From a virus, in UHGV virus genome UHGV-0177896: a stretch of DNA of 41,409 nt; one strand, given 5' to 3'. The position numbers were made by a program, and so were the translations under genes. The notes beneath the pieces are model-generated. The model ran no database searches. It was not told where the DNA came from and saw only the letters and a program-made list of their open reading frames with translations. Of the stretch, positions 28,801 through 37,083 are shown one piece after another. Every line of letters starts with the position of its first letter. Position 1 is the stretch's first letter.

Positions 28801-28956
28801 TTACTCCTCAGGTTCGTAAGCTGTGAAGACAGCGACCTCCGTCTGGCCGGTTCGGATTCGTACCTCGCAGAGGTCCTTCCTCGTTACCAGTGCCGTCACT
28901 ATGACGGTTAAACAGATGACAATCAGGGCGACTAACATCGCCTTTTGCTGCTTCAT
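28801..28956 (-). CDS. hok: Hok/Gef-family type I toxin (51 aa)
   Basis: MKQQKAMLVALIVICLTVIVTALVTRKDLCEVRIRTGQTEVAVFTAYEPEE: a single TM helix plus the conserved RKDLCEV...IRTGQTEVAVF core. AAGGAGAAG SD; an in-frame upstream ATG at 29013 may correspond to mok. Confidence 0.85.
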   Translation of the reverse strand: MKQQKAMLVALIVICLTVIVTALVTRKDLCEVRIRTGQTEVAVFTAYEPEE

Positions 28957-29294
28957 AGCCTGCTTCTCCTTGCCTTTCGGCACGTAAGAGGCTAACCTAC
29001 ATTTGTGAGACATAGATTGGGCCTCAGATTAATGTTAAGCGTCTTGCAGGACGCGTAATGTTAACTGGGGCTTTTCTCTGTCTGCCTTACAGTGGCATGC
29101 CCGAGGCAGACAGCCTCAAGCACCCGCAGCAATCTTACCGACACCGATAAGAAAACGCTATTTTTTATTGCCAGCACCTTCTATCCAGGCTAATTTATCT
29201 GCGTCAGAACGGCGCAATGCGCTCGCCTGAGATACGTTTACTTGCCATGGTAACAACAGGTAACGGCAATTGTTGTTTCTGTTTTGTTTCCTTC

Positions 29295-29330: not shown

Positions 29331-29414
29331 TTAACCCCAACGGCAAATCGAATACACCACCAGCGCCACCGCCATCACCATTCCTACCGTTGCGAATGCT
29401 TCAGGCCAGGTCAT
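29331..29414 (-). CDS. 27-aa hydrophobic peptide, translationally coupled
   Basis: MTWPEAFATVGMVMAVALVVYSICRWG; ATG overlaps the stop of the upstream 274-aa gene as ATGA, with GGAGGA 9 nt upstream. Followed directly by the terminator. Below ORF-track cutoff. Confidence 0.35.
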   Translation of the reverse strand: MTWPEAFATVGMVMAVALVVYSICRWG

Positions 29415-30235
29415 CGTAAAATATCCTCCACACCTACCAACCCGTTCTGCTTCAGATATTCCATCGCCTTATCAGGCAAGCTGCTTAAACTATTGGCGTA
29501 CTTTAAGGAGTGAGCCAGACGCTTAACCCACATTGTTAATTCGCTAACCTGGTTACCTGGCACTGGCGACGCTACTGTCTGTTCCAGAACGTCATCAGGT
29601 ACTACCGGCTCTACTGCCAACTGACTGGCATATTTGTTAATGGTAACGATAAGCTCTTGCTCGGCCTCATCCAGACAATCACCAACACCTCGCCTGTCAC
29701 CGTCAAAATCATCGAAATCGGCACGAATCCTGGCAACCTCCCGGATTGCGGACAACACTTCACCAGGAATTAGCGGAGAGTTGGTTGACGTTTCCGAAAT
29801 TTCCCGAAAATTATTGGTTGACGAATCCTTGTTTTCCCGAAAGTTTCCTGACTGAAGCATGGCTTCGCGGCAATCGTTCCATCCTTCAGCATAATCACTA
29901 TACGCAAGAGGCCAACCTCTTATGTATTCACGCGGCAACTTATCAGGCACTACCAGCGCTGGCGATGATGCATAAAGTGGTGTTATTTTTGCCCGAAAAT
30001 CACCTACTTTATGCAGTCGCACCCACCGTTCGACTTCTGCTTTGTCAGAATACATAGCGGTGAACGTATTATATTCATGGTCAATTTGCGTGAAGGTTGC
30101 CTTCCACGCCACCGGCTCTGCTTCCAGCGATGCCAGCGCAATCCGTGCCAGTTCCATTTGTTCACCACGGGTAAGCCCGTTTTCAAGCGGGTTTTTAATG
30201 AACAATTCAATACGTTCTTTGGTAATAGTGGTCAT
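29411..30235 (-). CDS. Hypothetical acidic protein (274 aa), nin-like region
   Basis: ATG at 30235 with an AAGGAG SD 6 nt upstream. No recognisable domain. Confidence 0.55.
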   Translation of the reverse strand: MTTITKERIELFIKNPLENGLTRGEQMELARIALASLEAEPVAWKATFTQIDHEYNTFTAMYSDKAEVERWVRLHKVGDFRAKITPLYASSPALVVPDKLPREYIRGWPLAYSDYAEGWNDCREAMLQSGNFRENKDSSTNNFREISETSTNSPLIPGEVLSAIREVARIRADFDDFDGDRRGVGDCLDEAEQELIVTINKYASQLAVEPVVPDDVLEQTVASPVPGNQVSELTMWVKRLAHSLKYANSLSSLPDKAMEYLKQNGLVGVEDILR

Positions 30236-30245
30236 GTGTTACTCC

Positions 30246-30509
30246 TTAACCCGCAGTGCTTTCAACTGATGAGGGGAACAAAATCTTTTCATCAAACCCT
30301 GCATTCATATCATGAACAGCAACACACCAATCCATCGACGAACGATTATCAAGAGCCTCCATGATTTCATCCATGCGGCGTAGGTCATACAGGTAAATGC
30401 TTTTATCGCCAATGGTGTAAAAACCAATTTTTTTCGGTGATGGGCAGCGATCAAGAACGTTCTGTAATTCGCTCAACCATGCCTGTTCCTTTTTTGTCAA
30501 AGTTGCCAT
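30246..30509 (-). CDS. Hypothetical protein (87 aa)
   Basis: ATG at 30509, immediately downstream of junction-repeat copy 1, which supplies its AAGGAGAG SD. Confidence 0.5.
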   Translation of the reverse strand: MATLTKKEQAWLSELQNVLDRCPSPKKIGFYTIGDKSIYLYDLRRMDEIMEALDNRSSMDWCVAVHDMNAGFDEKILFPSSVESTAG

Positions 30510-30510
30510 A

Positions 30511-31002
30511 TCACTCTCCTTTGATGCGAATGCCAGTGGTACTCATTCTCCTGATTTCCCAGAGCACACGAGGAATACCACCGTTTCCGACCGGATCGCG
30601 TTTACTCCGCAGGGCGACGCTTGATTCCGCCCAGCTTTTTCTTGGAGGAAGCTCTTTCACACGAACAAAACCAGCTGCGCGAAGAGATGCTCCTGATTCA
30701 TCTGCCCGGGTGTACGTAATACAACGTTGATAACCCATAGCTTTTGCTGCCCGCCAGACAGCACCATAAAGCGCGCTGTTAGCGTTGCGTTCTCCTGTGG
30801 TACATGTGCGATTTACTTCAAGCGTTAATCCATCGTCCAAATGTCGTGCAACAGGTCGACCAGCTGTCGCCACACCTATCAATTCTCCGGCATCATTTAT
30901 CAGACCAATGCTGAATTTATGCCCAACAGGTGGTTTATTGTGTCGGTGATGTCTGGATATAAACGCCTTCGCAACACGAAGAGTAACCGGTGAAATTTGC
31001 AT
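30511..31002 (-). CDS. Hypothetical protein (163 aa)
   Basis: ATG at 31002 (MQISPVTL...), downstream of junction-repeat copy 2. Its C-terminus GIRIKGE is encoded by repeat copy 1. Confidence 0.5.
   Translation of the reverse strand: MQISPVTLRVAKAFISRHHRHNKPPVGHKFSIGLINDAGELIGVATAGRPVARHLDDGLTLEVNRTCTTGERNANSALYGAVWRAAKAMGYQRCITYTRADESGASLRAAGFVRVKELPPRKSWAESSVALRSKRDPVGNGGIPRVLWEIRRMSTTGIRIKGE
30512..30536. repeat. Gene-junction repeat, copy 1 (CTCTCCTTTGATGCGAATGCCAG)
   Basis: On the minus strand it reads CTGGCATTCGCATCAAAGGAGAG-TGA-tATG: the last codons and stop of one gene plus the SD of the next. Confidence 0.75.
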
Positions 31003-31004
31003 TC

Positions 31005-31026
31005 TCACTCTCCTTTGATGCGAATG
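31005..31026. repeat. Gene-junction repeat, copy 2 (shorter match)
   Basis: TCACTCTCCTTTGATGCGAATG, in the same stop/SD/start arrangement between consecutive genes. Confidence 0.7.
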
Positions 31027-31481
31027 TTTACAGCCTGACAAGCCTCTTCGAGAACCCAGTCAACAGCGTCTTTCCATGCTCCGGTTTCGACTGGCGGATT
31101 TTCACGCTTAACCTGTTCATAGAAGCGCACCGCTTTAACCAGTCCTTCCGGCGCTGGGTGCCCTGTCTGCGCCCTGACCCACGCCACTCGTGCCGGATTC
31201 ATATGGCACATGTTGTGCCCTCTTTCTTCATGGTAATGCTCTTTACCCTCGTTAAACGGCAACGCCTCATTCAGCCCGGCACTTCTGAAATCAGCGTGTA
31301 ATTGCTCCAGCGCTGCCTCACAGGGGGTACCAATTAATGTGAGATAATCGAAAAGATTGGCGCATAAACCATAATTTTGAGAAAACACTCCGCCGGGTTT
31401 TGCCCCGTTCTTCAGCCACAAATCATAAGCAATATAAAACCCGTAAAGCTGTTGCCTGATATTTTCTTTGATTTCTTGCAT
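31005..31481 (-). CDS. Hypothetical protein (158 aa)
   Basis: ORF ending in NIRIKGE, which is encoded by junction-repeat copy 2. Confidence 0.5.
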   Translation of the reverse strand: MQEIKENIRQQLYGFYIAYDLWLKNGAKPGGVFSQNYGLCANLFDYLTLIGTPCEAALEQLHADFRSAGLNEALPFNEGKEHYHEERGHNMCHMNPARVAWVRAQTGHPAPEGLVKAVRFYEQVKRENPPVETGAWKDAVDWVLEEACQAVNIRIKGE

Positions 31482-31576
31482 TATTTGTTACCGCCCTTTC
31501 GGGCGGCCTCCTGATGTTCTGAGGGTGCAGAAATCCCTCCGGTTAAGGATCGAATTTTTAACAGTGCTAAATTTAA

Positions 31577-31933
31577 TTATTCAGTTCTGGATTTTGTCAC
31601 CCTGCGTATCCGCGCTTTCGCGTTACGCTCAATCTGAATTAACTTTTCTATATTTTTCCGTCTTTCCTGTTCCTCCTGGCGCAATAGCCTTACATCATCT
31701 GCCAGTCTGGTTTCTCTTTTCGCCACAGAGAGCATCCAGTCAAATGGCTCCACAACTGCACCGCAGATTTTACAGCGGACCTGACGCTCTTTTTCGTCAA
31801 CCCGGACAGAAGCGTGATGGCAATATGGTCTTTCCGATGGCTCATAAAGAAAATTAACCTGATTACGAGGGTCATCCTCTTTTACCGGAAATAAAACGAT
31901 ATTGCTTAACTCATCTTCTGGTTTTATTTCCAT
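31577..31933 (-). CDS. Hypothetical protein with Cys/His cluster (118 aa)
   Basis: ATG at 31933 after junction-repeat copy 3 (AAGGAGAG SD). Contains CHH...CKIC, possibly a zinc ribbon. Confidence 0.45.
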   Translation of the reverse strand: MEIKPEDELSNIVLFPVKEDDPRNQVNFLYEPSERPYCHHASVRVDEKERQVRCKICGAVVEPFDWMLSVAKRETRLADDVRLLRQEEQERRKNIEKLIQIERNAKARIRRVTKSRTE

Positions 31934-31935
31934 GC

Positions 31936-31961
31936 TCCTCTCCTTTGATGCGAATGCCAGC
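31936..31961. repeat. Gene-junction repeat, copy 3 (CTCTCCTTTGATGCGAATGCCAG)
   Basis: Same 23-bp core plus flanking GGTA. Here it is intergenic and supplies the AAGGAGAG SD for the ATG at 31933. Confidence 0.75.
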
Positions 31962-31990
31962 GGTAATTGAAGCCTGATAGCTAATTTCAC

Positions 31991-32413
31991 TCACAGTACC
32001 GCCTCCTGAAAATTACCCTGATAGAAAGCCAGTACACGCTGCATAACTTCGCTCTTCCGGCACTCGCGACAGATTATGTTTAGGCGACTGTCGTAGCGAC
32101 GTATTTCTCCGTCTGGTAATGACCAGATAAGGTCCGGATCAACCGCAGATGGTTTCTTCAGCTTTGCCCTTGAGAGCTTTTTACGGGCATTTTGCCAGTC
32201 CTTACGCGCCTGTTCAGACGGGAATAACCCGTAACCAGAGTTGTATACATCGCCACTGGCAACCAGCTCTCTGGCGAGAACGCTCATCAGATATCTTGTC
32301 GCACCTGTCTTGGCTTCCAGTTGCCGTAACGTCTCGCGTCCACTCTGGCGTACAAGTTCCACAATGCGCGCTTTCACTTCTTCCCGTTCTTCCTGTGTAA
32401 ATACTCTTGCCAT
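31991..32413 (-). CDS. Hypothetical protein (140 aa)
   Basis: ATG at 32413 (MARVFTQEEREE...) with GGAGG 5 nt upstream. Confidence 0.45.
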   Translation of the reverse strand: MARVFTQEEREEVKARIVELVRQSGRETLRQLEAKTGATRYLMSVLARELVASGDVYNSGYGLFPSEQARKDWQNARKKLSRAKLKKPSAVDPDLIWSLPDGEIRRYDSRLNIICRECRKSEVMQRVLAFYQGNFQEAVL

Positions 32414-33965: not shown

Positions 33966-34754
33966 TTACCCCCTGAAGCCTGGCGGGATCGCACTGTCCG
34001 GCAACGAGACGGTGTTAACCTGTCGGAGCAACGTCTCAGGCCGAACACCTTTCGGCGCGAACAGGCCCTGGTATTCATTGGCGATGCTGTGTCGAATCAC
34101 CTGCTCAGGTGTAAAACCCTGCTGACGGAATTTTTCCAGCTCCCGTATCGCCCCGTTAGCGCCCTGCTCCGTTCGAATCGGTTTTCGCAATGCCTGCCTG
34201 AACTGAACCCACTCATGCCAGAGTGTTTCCGGCAACCAGTCAGGCAGCTCGATAGCCTCCGGCTCGAATTTTTTAGACGCTCGTTTTTGGCGAGGGGGAT
34301 TTAGGGGGAGATCAGTATTTATATCTTCCTCTTCCTCTTCCTCTGGTAACGCTTTTTGATCCGTTTGTGTAACGCTGGCAGCGTTACCTTTTCGTTTCAG
34401 TTCGCGTATTTTTGTAACTCGCTCGTTTGTAACCGCCCGTTTTTTAGAGCTTTTTCCGTTATGACGTTCAAAGTTAGGTAGAGAAAGCCCAACGTCATTT
34501 TCGACCAGCCATCCAACCTGAATTAACGCATCAGCAAAACCAGCCATAAAAGTGATGCGATCTATTGCACTTTTTGTAACGCCGCGAGCGTTACAATCTG
34601 CATTACCGTCTATCATTTGTTGATCCGCCCATGCCCAGAAGCGAATAACCTTCCCTAATGCGGCATCTGGATCAATATTCAGAATCTCAGCAAGCCTGAA
34701 TATTTCCGGCTTATCCGGCGTAATAACCTCGAGCTTTATCCAGTTTGAAGCCAT
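33966..34754 (-). CDS. Replication initiation / primosomal protein (YdaU-like)
   Basis: 262-aa ORF preceding the DnaC-like gene, with a central acidic linker (EEEEEEDINTD). Contains two 19-bp palindromes in its coding sequence. Confidence 0.55.
   Translation of the reverse strand: MASNWIKLEVITPDKPEIFRLAEILNIDPDAALGKVIRFWAWADQQMIDGNADCNARGVTKSAIDRITFMAGFADALIQVGWLVENDVGLSLPNFERHNGKSSKKRAVTNERVTKIRELKRKGNAASVTQTDQKALPEEEEEEDINTDLPLNPPRQKRASKKFEPEAIELPDWLPETLWHEWVQFRQALRKPIRTEQGANGAIRELEKFRQQGFTPEQVIRHSIANEYQGLFAPKGVRPETLLRQVNTVSLPDSAIPPGFRG
34369..34387. repeat. 19-bp palindrome GTAACGCTGGCAGCGTTAC (copy 1 of 3)
   Basis: Perfect GTAACGC-N5-GCGTTAC dyad inside the replication gene; an extra GTAACGC half-site lies at 34346..34352. 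Confidence 0.7.
34576..34594. repeat. 19-bp palindrome GTAACGCCGCGAGCGTTAC (copy 2 of 3)
   Basis: Same GTAACGC-N5-GCGTTAC dyad, 207 bp from copy 1, inside the replication gene. Confidence 0.7.
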
Positions 34755-34767
34755 TTGTTTTCACCTT

Positions 34768-34786
34768 GTAACGCTCGCAGCGTTAC
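34768..34786. repeat. 19-bp palindrome GTAACGCTCGCAGCGTTAC (copy 3 of 3)
   Basis: Same dyad, immediately upstream of the replication gene's RBS and ATG (34754). Confidence 0.7.
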
Positions 34787-34831
34787 ATTTAACTGATACC
34801 GAACAAAACAATCCGGCACGATTAATTTCAA

Positions 34832-36687: not shown

Positions 36688-37083
36688 AGGAATACCTTAT
36701 TACTGGTTGTGTGAGAACTCCAGTATACCACCGAGCCTGAAGTGGTAAAAAGACAGGCGCACAACACGAAGGCGCATTTCCGGTATTCATAAAGAGTCGG
36801 TCTTGTCTGTTAAATTTAAATGGTGGGAGTGCGCCTCCGGTTGTAAATAACGACAATTGCTATGTGTAGTCTTTGGCGGCATCAGTTCTACTCCGTGGCT
36901 GCCCTGCCGCCCCTTTTTAAAGTGAATTTTGTGATGCGGTGAATGCGGCTAAGCGCACGCAGCACAGTTAAAAGCATCAGTGTTATGGGTGGATTATCCG
37001 GCGTTAATTGTTAACTGGTTAACGTCACCTGGAGGCACCAGGCACCGCATCGACAAAATTCATTTGTAAAAATGGAGATAATT

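What the first reader, a model, noticed from the sequence alone, without database searches (positions are those of the whole stretch)
30512..31961. A 23-bp junction sequence reused three times between consecutive nin-like genes
CTCTCCTTTGATGCGAATGCCAG (minus strand CTGGCATTCGCATCAAAGGAGAG) occurs at 30512, 31005 and 31936. In each case it provides the SD for the next gene, and in two cases it also encodes the last residues (IRIKGE) and stop of the previous gene. Unrelated genes thus share identical C-terminal tails and ribosome-binding sites. Such conserved junctions are the kind of short homology that would allow cassette exchange between phages, or they may be a shared translational-coupling element.
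Basis: seen in the sequence. Interest (0 to 1): 0.5.

Follow-up and report, generated by a model that had tools for sequence, protein, structure and literature searches.

The report
Shared gene-junction sequence for phage cassette swapping
A roughly 26-base sequence (the last codons of phage lambda's ea22 gene, a ribosome-binding site and a stop/start) sits between many unrelated accessory genes of E. coli prophages and marks where those genes are swapped, making it a clear but not fundamentally new example of a phage "linker" sequence.

Summary
The repeat is real, but the description needs correcting. The exact 23-mer occurs twice (30514-30536, 31938-31960). The third copy (31008-31026) shares 19 nt. 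About 0.01 matches are expected by chance.

The window is a Rac-like lambdoid prophage of E. coli. The repeat is the 3' end of the lambda ea22 / P22 ead gene family (lambda Ea22 ends ...AGIRIKGE*). It is fused to a Shine-Dalgarno sequence (AAAGGAG, read in frame as K-G-E), a TGA stop and the next ATG.

- **J1** lies in a 27-codon "ghost" ea22, which keeps only the first 8 codons and the tail.
- **J2** ends a chimeric protein that carries an Ea22 C-terminal domain.
- **J3** ends an unrelated XF1762-family gene whose more distant homologs lack the tail.

In 118 viral-contig occurrences the junction joins 17 upstream types to 19 downstream types, in 49 combinations. Flanking variants follow the upstream partner left of -6 and the downstream partner right of +4. 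XF1762 is a precise presence/absence cassette bounded by two junction copies. The junction occurs in both the exo-xis and post-replication operons, in a P1-like phage, and in 58% of complete E. coli genomes.

Best reading: it is a portable gene boundary that also serves as an anchor for homologous recombination. This is a new member of a known kind, of moderate interest.

The parts
31938..31960 (-). Junction copy J1 (exact 23-mer CTGGCATTCGCATCAAAGGAGAG on the coding strand). It supplies the SD for the 118-aa gene. The TGA is replaced by GAG.
31911..31994 (-). Ghost ea22 mini-ORF of 27 codons, VSEISYQASITAGIRIKGEEHGNKTRR*. Its GTG overlaps the DUF977 stop (GTGA). The first 24 nt match the ea22 start of 933W/lambda at 21 of 24 positions, and the 3' part is the tail. 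It overlaps the start of the 118-aa gene.
   Evidence: (cluster U1: 21 loci, 15 with the 27-codon form)
31577..31933 (-). 118-aa zinc-ribbon-like hypothetical gene (cassette type D0), the commonest downstream partner of the junction.
31488..31513 (-). A second, different boundary element: the hairpin CAGGAGGCCGCCCGAAAGGGCGGTAA just upstream of the 158-aa gene. It is reused upstream of other genes in sibling prophages.
   Evidence: z = -2.45; 20 loci
31005..31481 (-). 158-aa chimeric ORF. Residues 98-158 are 74% identical to the C-terminal domain of a 260-aa Ea22-like protein (cluster U11). It ends ...QAVNIRIKGE*.
31005..31027 (-). Junction copy J2: a 19-nt core shared with J1/J3, plus the TGA stop. 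It supplies the SD for XF1762 (ATG at 31002).
30511..31002 (-). XF1762-family gene (163 aa) flanked by junction copies on both sides, i.e. a cassette. The family model covers residues 3-136 only. Homologs at 80-86% identity end ...VLWEIRRMK* without the tail.
30511..30536 (-). Junction copy J3: the exact 23-mer plus the TGA stop of XF1762. It supplies the SD for the 87-aa gene (ATG at 30509).
30246..30509 (-). 87-aa hypothetical gene (cassette type D2). In 58 of 79 independently found loci it is preceded by the junction, attached to at least 9 different upstream sequences.

Best explanation
The repeat is a conserved gene-boundary ('linker') sequence of the accessory-gene pool of enterobacterial lambdoid phages. 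Its consensus is (CGCGCC)GCTGGC ATT CGC ATC AAA GGA GAG TGA (T/G) ATG. That is the last codons of the lambda ea22 / P22 ead family (..AAGIRIKGE), a stop, and the next start, with the K-G-E codons doubling as the Shine-Dalgarno of the next gene. It lies between two hypervariable stretches, the Ea22 C-terminal domain and the downstream cassette slot. It is present in several prophages of the same cell. Its nearly invariant core of about 26 nt is therefore the only homology available there. Crossovers in the core reassort what lies on either side. They are probably made by phage single-strand-annealing recombinases (RecT here; Red-beta or Erf elsewhere) or by RecA. Every recombinant keeps a correct stop, ribosome-binding site and start. 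Genes that have acquired the tail, such as XF1762, become cassettes flanked by direct repeats. Such cassettes can be gained or lost precisely, and can move between the pL exo-xis region, the pR post-replication region of Rac-like prophages, and P1-like phages. Shown by comparison: the identity with the ea22 tail, the combinatorial partners, the linkage switch, the precise indel, the constrained SD and the unconstrained peptide. Inferred: that homologous recombination is the mechanism, which enzymes act, and that the SD and coupling are used.
For: Lambda Ea22 ends ...MMSDAGIRIKGE* on the same nucleotides. P7 upf88.3 (Ead-like), 933W ea22 and HK620 hkaG carry the tail or a close variant. Of 76 Ea22-like genes found through their N-terminal 120 aa, 52 end in the exact 18-mer and 70 in a close variant. 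The junction joins 17 x 19 flank clusters in 49 combinations among 118 occurrences. Column conservation is at least 60-90% only from -6 to +7. Variants at or left of -6 associate with the upstream cluster (AMI 0.3-0.67, against 0.05-0.33 with the downstream cluster); those at or right of +4 associate with the downstream cluster (mostly 0.4-0.6, against 0.26 or less; the three nearly invariant ATG positions carry no signal). Megablast alignments to other phages start or stop at J1 and J3 (query 308 = window 30507; query 1763 = window 31962). XF1762 has a junction on both sides in nearly all E. coli-phage loci, with at least 6 upstream and at least 8 downstream partners. L255 has one junction where the window has J2-XF1762-J3, and the two HSPs overlap by 37 nt on that junction. 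The same cassettes and Ea22 C-domain types occur in both exo-xis (25) and post-replication (57) contexts. There are a median of 2 and up to 12 copies per E. coli genome. The prophage encodes recE/recT. The published minimal efficient pairing length is 23-27 bp for Red-beta and 31-34 bp for RecA (PMC3945230). Within the 21-nt tail there are 3 synonymous and 10 non-synonymous distinct variants, matching the neutral 24% synonymous, and none falls in AAAGGAG.
Against: No crossover has been observed directly. The pattern shows a module boundary and leaves the enzymology open. A 23-31-bp patch is at the lower limit for efficient recombination. Most upstream partners share long Ea22 N-terminal and coiled-coil homology, so some exchanges of the downstream side could start there rather than in the junction. 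At deeper divergence (P22 eaD: AGIKVKGE, with 4 synonymous and 2 conservative changes; other tails AAGIKEESE and AAGIKVEAE) the peptide looks conserved. The tail may therefore also matter to Ea22 proteins. In lambda itself no start codon follows the junction (TGAGATCGG), so the SD is not used there.
Confidence: 0.7

Rival explanations
1. The tail is a functional C-terminal peptide motif (AAGI+I+GE) of Ea22/Ead proteins. On this view its conservation reflects protein function, and the DNA repeat is a by-product.
For: All Ea22 proteins end in (K/R)GE, 'significance unknown' (PMC7093339). Tails from other lineages keep the AAGI..E pattern on diverged nucleotides, for example P22 eaD AGIKVKGE.
Against: The same nucleotides end an unrelated XF1762 enzyme whose homologs lack them. 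They also lie in a 27-codon ghost ORF, out of frame with the upstream DUF977 gene. Within the E. coli pool the variants are 10 non-synonymous to 3 synonymous, which is neutral. The K-G-E codons are explained by the SD.
Confidence: 0.1
2. It is only a translational element: a strong SD plus a stop/start arrangement for coupling, kept by selection for expression. Modules would be exchanged by illegitimate recombination and then filtered by selection (the Hendrix model).
For: AAAGGAG lies 6-7 nt before the ATG, with TGA 1-2 nt before the start. The SD core is invariant.
Against: An SD needs about 6-7 nt, whereas the shared core is about 26 nt and includes 15 nt upstream of the SD. Neighbouring boundaries in the same operon use other sequences. 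Illegitimate joining would not regenerate the same 26 nt between 49 different partner pairs, nor produce a precise indel between two copies.
Confidence: 0.15
3. It is the target of a site-specific or nuclease-driven system, integron-attC-like or homing-like.
For: Cassette-like presence/absence of single genes flanked by direct repeats.
Against: There is no inverted repeat or stable fold (z = -0.29, +0.99, +0.42). No dedicated recombinase is consistently adjacent, and the contexts differ: exo-xis, post-replication, P7. There is no Rfam or promoter/terminator signal.
Confidence: 0.03
4. It is a chance repeat or a purely local duplication in this genome.
For: None beyond the three copies lying within 1.5 kb of each other.
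Against: About 0.01 matches are expected by chance. The sequence occurs in hundreds of phages with different neighbours.
Confidence: 0.01

Closest known systems
Conserved 'linker'/boundary sequences of the modular theory of lambdoid phage evolution (Susskind & Botstein 1978; Botstein 1980; Clark et al. 2001 on HK620), as summarised in PMC3233612 and PMC2839356
   Same: A short conserved sequence at a gene boundary, flanked by non-homologous modules in different phages. It is proposed to target homologous recombination so that recombinants stay functional.
   Different: This one is defined precisely: the ea22/ead tail plus SD plus stop/start, with a core of about 26 nt. It occurs as tandem direct repeats in one operon, and it links two oppositely transcribed operons and a P1-like phage. 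HK620 hkaG/hkaF carries an exact copy, so Clark et al. may have listed it. That paper is not in the held library, so I could not check.
The '+GE' C-terminal tripeptide and mosaic organisation of Ea22 proteins (Dydecka et al. 2020, PMC7093339; Sci Rep 2024, PMC10834534)
   Same: The same tail on the same gene family. The hypervariable C-terminal domains were already noted.
   Different: Those papers treat it as a protein motif of unknown significance. Here K-G-E is read as AAA GGA GAG, the SD of the next gene. The tail is also found on non-Ea22 genes and in ghost ORFs.
PeSL regulatory cassettes of T4-type phages (Arbiol et al. 2010, PMC2839356)
   Same: Repeated short elements ending in an SD plus start. 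They flank variable ORFans and give precise gain, loss or replacement by recombination between copies.
   Different: PeSLs are intergenic, span about 100 bp, and contain a sigma-70 promoter and a stem-loop terminator. The junction here overlaps a coding 3' end, spans about 26-31 nt, and has no promoter, terminator or structure. Mini-circles have not been tested.
Integron gene cassettes (attC x attI)
   Same: Single promoterless genes bounded by repeats and inserted into an expressed array.
   Different: Integrons need a tyrosine recombinase and folded, imperfectly palindromic attC sites. Neither is present here.

Membership tests
Lambdoid boundary/linker sequence | Short conserved sequence located exactly at a gene boundary | tested here: met
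   Stop/SD/start at all three copies. Conservation is confined to -6..+7 around the 18-mer.
Lambdoid boundary/linker sequence | The same sequence flanked by different, non-homologous modules in different phages | tested here: met
   17 upstream x 19 downstream clusters in 49 combinations. Independent gene-anchored samples agree.
Lambdoid boundary/linker sequence | Homology breakpoints and linkage switch coincide with the sequence | tested here: met
   Alignment ends at window 30507 and 31962. AMI switch between -6 and +4. Overlapping HSPs on a single junction in L255.
Lambdoid boundary/linker sequence | Recombination at the sequence demonstrated experimentally | not testable with these tools
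   Needs phage crosses. Only published minimal pairing lengths were available.
ead/Ea22-like gene 3' end | Nucleotide identity with the 3' terminus of lambda ea22 and its homologs | tested here: met
   Lambda: GCTGGCATTCGCATCAAAGGAGAGTGA. 52 of 76 Ea22-like genes carry the exact 18-mer.
ead/Ea22-like gene 3' end | The upstream ORF is an Ea22-like protein (VSEINYQALRE N-terminus, LLDERERNQQYIKRRDQENE coiled coil) | tested here: not met
   In the window, J1 keeps only 8 N-terminal codons, J2 keeps only a C-terminal domain, and J3 follows XF1762. The feature is met for most copies elsewhere.
PeSL-type regulatory cassette | Sigma-70 promoter plus stem-loop terminator within the repeat | tested here: not met
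   No promoter or terminator at the copies. No significant fold.
Integron attC | Imperfect inverted repeat that folds, with an associated integron integrase | tested here: not met
   Fold z-scores of -0.29 to +0.99. No integrase next to the arrays.
Translational-coupling junction | SD inside the 3' end of the upstream ORF, with the stop within a few nt of the next start | tested here: met
   AAAGGAG-N6-7-ATG and TGA-N1-2-ATG. The SD is invariant. Actual coupling was not testable.
Chi recombination hotspot | GCTGGTGG octamer | tested here: not met
   The junction reads GCTGGCAT.

The most novel reading that the evidence does not exclude
The Ea22-tail junction may be the adaptor of a recombinase-independent, integron-like cassette system in enterobacterial temperate phages. 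Any gene that acquires the tail would become a direct-repeat-flanked cassette. Such a cassette could hop by short-homology recombination, possibly through excised mini-circles as shown for T4 PeSLs. The targets would be the pL exo-xis region, the pR post-replication region and P1-like plasmid prophages, and the cassette would always land in frame with a ready-made ribosome-binding site. On this reading the junction is maintained because it promotes that exchange. It would also explain the unexplained '+GE' end of Ea22 proteins.
Probability: 0.3. Interest if true: 0.6.

Novelty: new member of a known kind. Interest (0 to 1): 0.4.

Why it matters
There is a long-standing argument over how phage mosaicism arises. 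One view is targeted homologous recombination at conserved linkers (Botstein). The other is random illegitimate joining followed by selection (Hendrix). This junction is an unusually clean and abundant test case. It has a defined core of about 26 nt at the published pairing threshold of Red-beta-type recombinases. It has dozens of partner combinations, and it is present in lambda itself and in most E. coli genomes. It can therefore be tested directly with standard lambda genetics. It also offers a simple explanation for the '+GE' tail of Ea22 proteins. It identifies ghost ea22 remnants that annotation pipelines miss. And it shows that exo-xis accessory genes, which affect lysogeny in Shiga-toxin phages, circulate between operons and phage types.

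Tried and rejected
- RNA-element idea: no Rfam family at the copies and no significant fold.
- Promoter/terminator idea: none at the copies.
- Paralogy of the window genes: rejected by blastp; only the tail is shared.
- Chi-like site: the sequence is GCTGGCAT, not GCTGGTGG.
- Taxonomic range from one genome per species was largely uninformative. 33 of 63 hits are lambda contamination and 21 are chance 18-mers, against about 17 expected. The 9 that remain are Escherichia, Shigella and Shimwellia, plus three short or MAG contigs.
- My first windowed measure of the shared patch length ('ext_tol') was too strict and gave zeros. I used the column-conservation line and the AMI analysis instead.
- Literature search for the sequence or the peptide found only a lambda-transgene paper. 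Clark et al. 2001 is not held, so I could not check whether this exact boundary was listed there.
The gene-anchored locus scans already answered the tail question.

Full report
**Observation.** The exact 23-mer occurs twice on the + strand, at 30514-30536 and 31938-31960. It does not occur three times, and the coordinates in the finding are 2 nt low. The third site, 31008-31026, shares 19 nt and then diverges. The repeat finder groups the three as one family with spacings of 494 and 930 nt. Chance expectation is 0.00-0.01 matches.

All genes here are on the minus strand. Reading that strand, the copies are:
- J1: ...ACCGCTGGCATTCGCATCAAAGGAGAG GAGC ATG (118-aa gene)
- J2: ...GTAAACATTCGCATCAAAGGAGAG TGA GA ATG (XF1762)
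- J3: ...ACCACTGGCATTCGCATCAAAGGAGAG TGA T ATG (87-aa gene)

Each copy therefore places AAAGGAG 6-7 nt before a start codon.

**Setting.** The window is 100% identical to a prophage of E. coli AVS0790. The annotation shows a Rac-like lambdoid prophage. One arm carries recE/recT and kil. The rightward operon (minus strand here) runs:
- cro-like gene, ydaT, ydaU-like gene, ydaV (DnaC-like), DUF1627, DUF977
- 118-aa gene, 158-aa gene, XF1762, 87-aa gene
- DUF551-like pseudogene fragments, hokD/sok
- DUF1367, DUF1364, DUF1133, then the lysis genes

Positionally this is the nin-equivalent region. Pfam and NCBIfam name only XF1762 and DUF977 among the genes that flank the junction copies. blastp finds no similarity among those genes other than the tail.

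**What the sequence is.** A 40-nt query finds it in 389 phage records: lambda, 933W and many Stx phages, HK633, Salmonella phages and the P1-like phage P7. Where annotated, it lies at the end of 'ead/Ea22-like family' genes.
- Lambda Ea22 ends ...MMSDAGIRIKGE* on GCTGGCATTCGCATCAAAGGAGAGTGA.
- P7 upf88.3 (Ead-like) ends ...AAIRAAGIRIKGE* and is followed by TGATATG of upf89.0.
- HK620 hkaG (EaD-like) carries an exact copy followed by hkaF.

Ea22-like genes were also collected through their N-terminal 120 residues, independently of the tail. Of 76 such genes, 52 end in the exact 18-mer and 70 in a close variant.

The literature describes Ea22 as mosaic: a shared N-terminus and coiled coil with unrelated C-terminal domains. 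It notes that all Ea22 proteins end in (K/R)-G-E, 'significance unknown' (PMC7093339; PMC10834534). Read as nucleotides, K-G-E is AAA GGA GAG, the Shine-Dalgarno sequence of the next gene.

**The three window copies.**
- **J1** lies in a 27-codon ORF (31994-31911), VSEISYQASITAGIRIKGEEHGNKTRR*. Its GTG overlaps the DUF977 stop. Its first 24 nt match the start of ea22 in 933W and lambda at 21 of 24 positions. It is a ghost ea22 reduced to its two conserved ends. This form is common: cluster U1 has 21 loci.
- **J2** ends a 158-aa ORF. Its last 61 residues are 74% identical to the C-terminal domain of a 260-aa Ea22-like protein.
- **J3** ends an XF1762-family protein. The NCBIfam model covers residues 3-136 of 163. 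XF1762 homologs at 80-86% identity end ...VLWEIRRMK* or ...RRGV* with no tail. A few carry other local tail variants, RAAGIKWEAE* and SAAGIKVEVK*.

The tail is therefore an add-on to XF1762.

**Evidence for exchange at the junction.**
Flank clustering gives 17 upstream and 19 downstream clusters joined in 49 combinations among 118 occurrences.
- *Extent of conservation.* Across one representative per combination, conservation is high only from -6 to +7 around the 18-mer, about 31 nt.
- *Linkage switch.* Variants at or left of -6 associate with the upstream cluster and those at or right of +4 with the downstream cluster. The linkage switch therefore lies inside the nearly invariant core of about 26 nt.
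- *Alignment ends.* Megablast alignments of the window to other phages begin or end at J3 and J1.
- *87-aa gene.* Found independently in 79 loci, it is preceded by the junction in 58. In those it is attached to at least 9 different upstream sequences. 18 loci have a DUF4014 tail instead.
- *XF1762.* It has a junction on both sides in nearly all E. coli-phage loci, with at least 6 upstream and at least 8 downstream partners.
- *Precise indel.* Contig L255 has a single junction exactly where the window has J2-XF1762-J3, and the two HSPs overlap by 37 nt on it. This is a precise cassette presence/absence bounded by the direct repeats.
- *Sibling prophages.* Prophages with the same backbone carry different cassettes between the 118-aa gene and hokD.

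**Distribution.** Of the IMG/VR occurrences, 57 lie downstream of DUF977/DUF1627/ydaV (pR operon). 25 lie between exo/orf60a-63-61 and xis/int (pL operon), and 40 are undetermined. Five cassette types and five Ea22 C-domain types occur in both compartments. 3129 of 5426 complete E. coli genomes carry the junction, with a median of 2 and up to 12 places, 476 of them on plasmids. In one-genome-per-species data the genuine hits are Escherichia, Shigella and Shimwellia, plus three short or MAG contigs. The other hits are lambda contamination or chance 18-mers.

**What is constrained.** In 81 distinct-context copies collected independently of the 18-mer, the 21 nt encoding GIRIKGE show 13 distinct single-base variants. 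Three are synonymous and 10 non-synonymous, which equals the neutral expectation of 24% synonymous. None falls in the 7 nt AAAGGAG ((14/21)^13 is about 0.005). Within this pool the SD is constrained and the peptide is not. No significant RNA fold, Rfam family, promoter or terminator coincides with the copies.

At deeper divergence the tail keeps its amino-acid pattern on diverged nucleotides. Examples are P22 eaD AGIKVKGE and the tails AAGIKEESE and AAGIKVEAE. Some protein-level role in Ea22 cannot be excluded.

**Mechanism.** The junction is the only shared sequence between two hypervariable stretches. It is present in several co-resident prophages. Its length of 23-31 identical nt matches the published minimal efficient pairing segment of Red-beta (23-27 bp) and approaches that of RecA (31-34 bp) (PMC3945230). 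This prophage encodes RecE/RecT.

A single crossover in the core between colinear phages swaps everything downstream. Unequal crossovers between tandem copies add or delete cassettes. All products keep the stop, SD and start. These mechanistic steps are inferred, because no crossover was observed.

**Comparison and novelty.** This is the kind of element postulated by Botstein's modular theory and reported for lambdoid phages by Clark et al. 2001, as cited in PMC3233612 and PMC2839356. Functionally it resembles the PeSL cassettes of T4-type phages, but it lacks their promoter and stem-loop. It is not an integron attC site.

The specific identification appears new relative to the held literature, which has no hit for the sequence or the peptide. 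That identification has four parts:
- the ea22 tail plus SD as the junction
- ghost ea22 remnants
- tail capture by XF1762
- sharing between the pL and pR compartments and a P1-like phage

Because HK620 carries an exact copy, the 2001 paper may already list this boundary. I could not read it.

**Verdict.** New member of a known kind, interest about 0.4.

Noticed in passing
window 31488-31513 (-): A second reusable boundary element, the GC hairpin CAGGAGGCCGCCCGAAAGGGCGGTAA, lies just before the 158-aa gene. The same 26-mer precedes different genes (DUF4014, a 129-aa ORF) in sibling prophages and occurs in 20 of 289 fetched loci. Its fold has z = -2.45.
   Followed up: partly
sibling prophages L125-L129; window 29411-29443: Further shared gene ends occur in the same cassette region. 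DUF4014 ends NPYKE(N/S)* and is followed by TGATATGGCA, joined to either the 87-aa or an HNH gene. A common ..(I/V)(S/N/G)(A/V)ED(I/V)LR* tail ends the last, otherwise different, ORF before hokD, including the window's 274-aa ORF.
   Followed up: no
window 28951-29125 (-) and 36861-36912 (+): Rfam finds sok antitoxin RNA (118 bits), which goes with the annotated hokD, and DicF RNA (61 bits).
   Followed up: no
window 34368-34391, 34575-34598, 34767-34790: Three copies of a palindromic motif, TGTAACGC..GCGTTACA, lie about 200 bp apart in and just upstream of the ydaU-like replication gene. They could be iterons or operators (family D2).
   Followed up: no
window 29411-30235 (-): This is an intact 274-aa ORF with an EaA/DUF551-family N-terminus (MTTITKERIELF...). 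RefSeq annotates it only as two pseudogene fragments. It contains a 33-nt tandem repeat at 29781-29845.
   Followed up: no
loci L294-L350 (GTDB species representatives): 33 assemblies of unrelated bacteria (Streptomyces, Bacillus, Pseudoxanthomonas, Piscirickettsia and others) hold DNA 99-100% identical to phage lambda. Most of it lies on tiny, low-coverage contigs, with a few hits inside longer contigs, which points to lambda contamination.
   Followed up: partly
L122 (lambda) 2501-2560; cluster D5 loci: In lambda the junction is followed by TGAGATCGG with no start codon. Related contigs have a 7-codon stub (MSRNTGL*) before the same downstream sequence. Lambda's ea22-ea8.5 spacer therefore looks like a deleted cassette slot.
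   Followed up: partly
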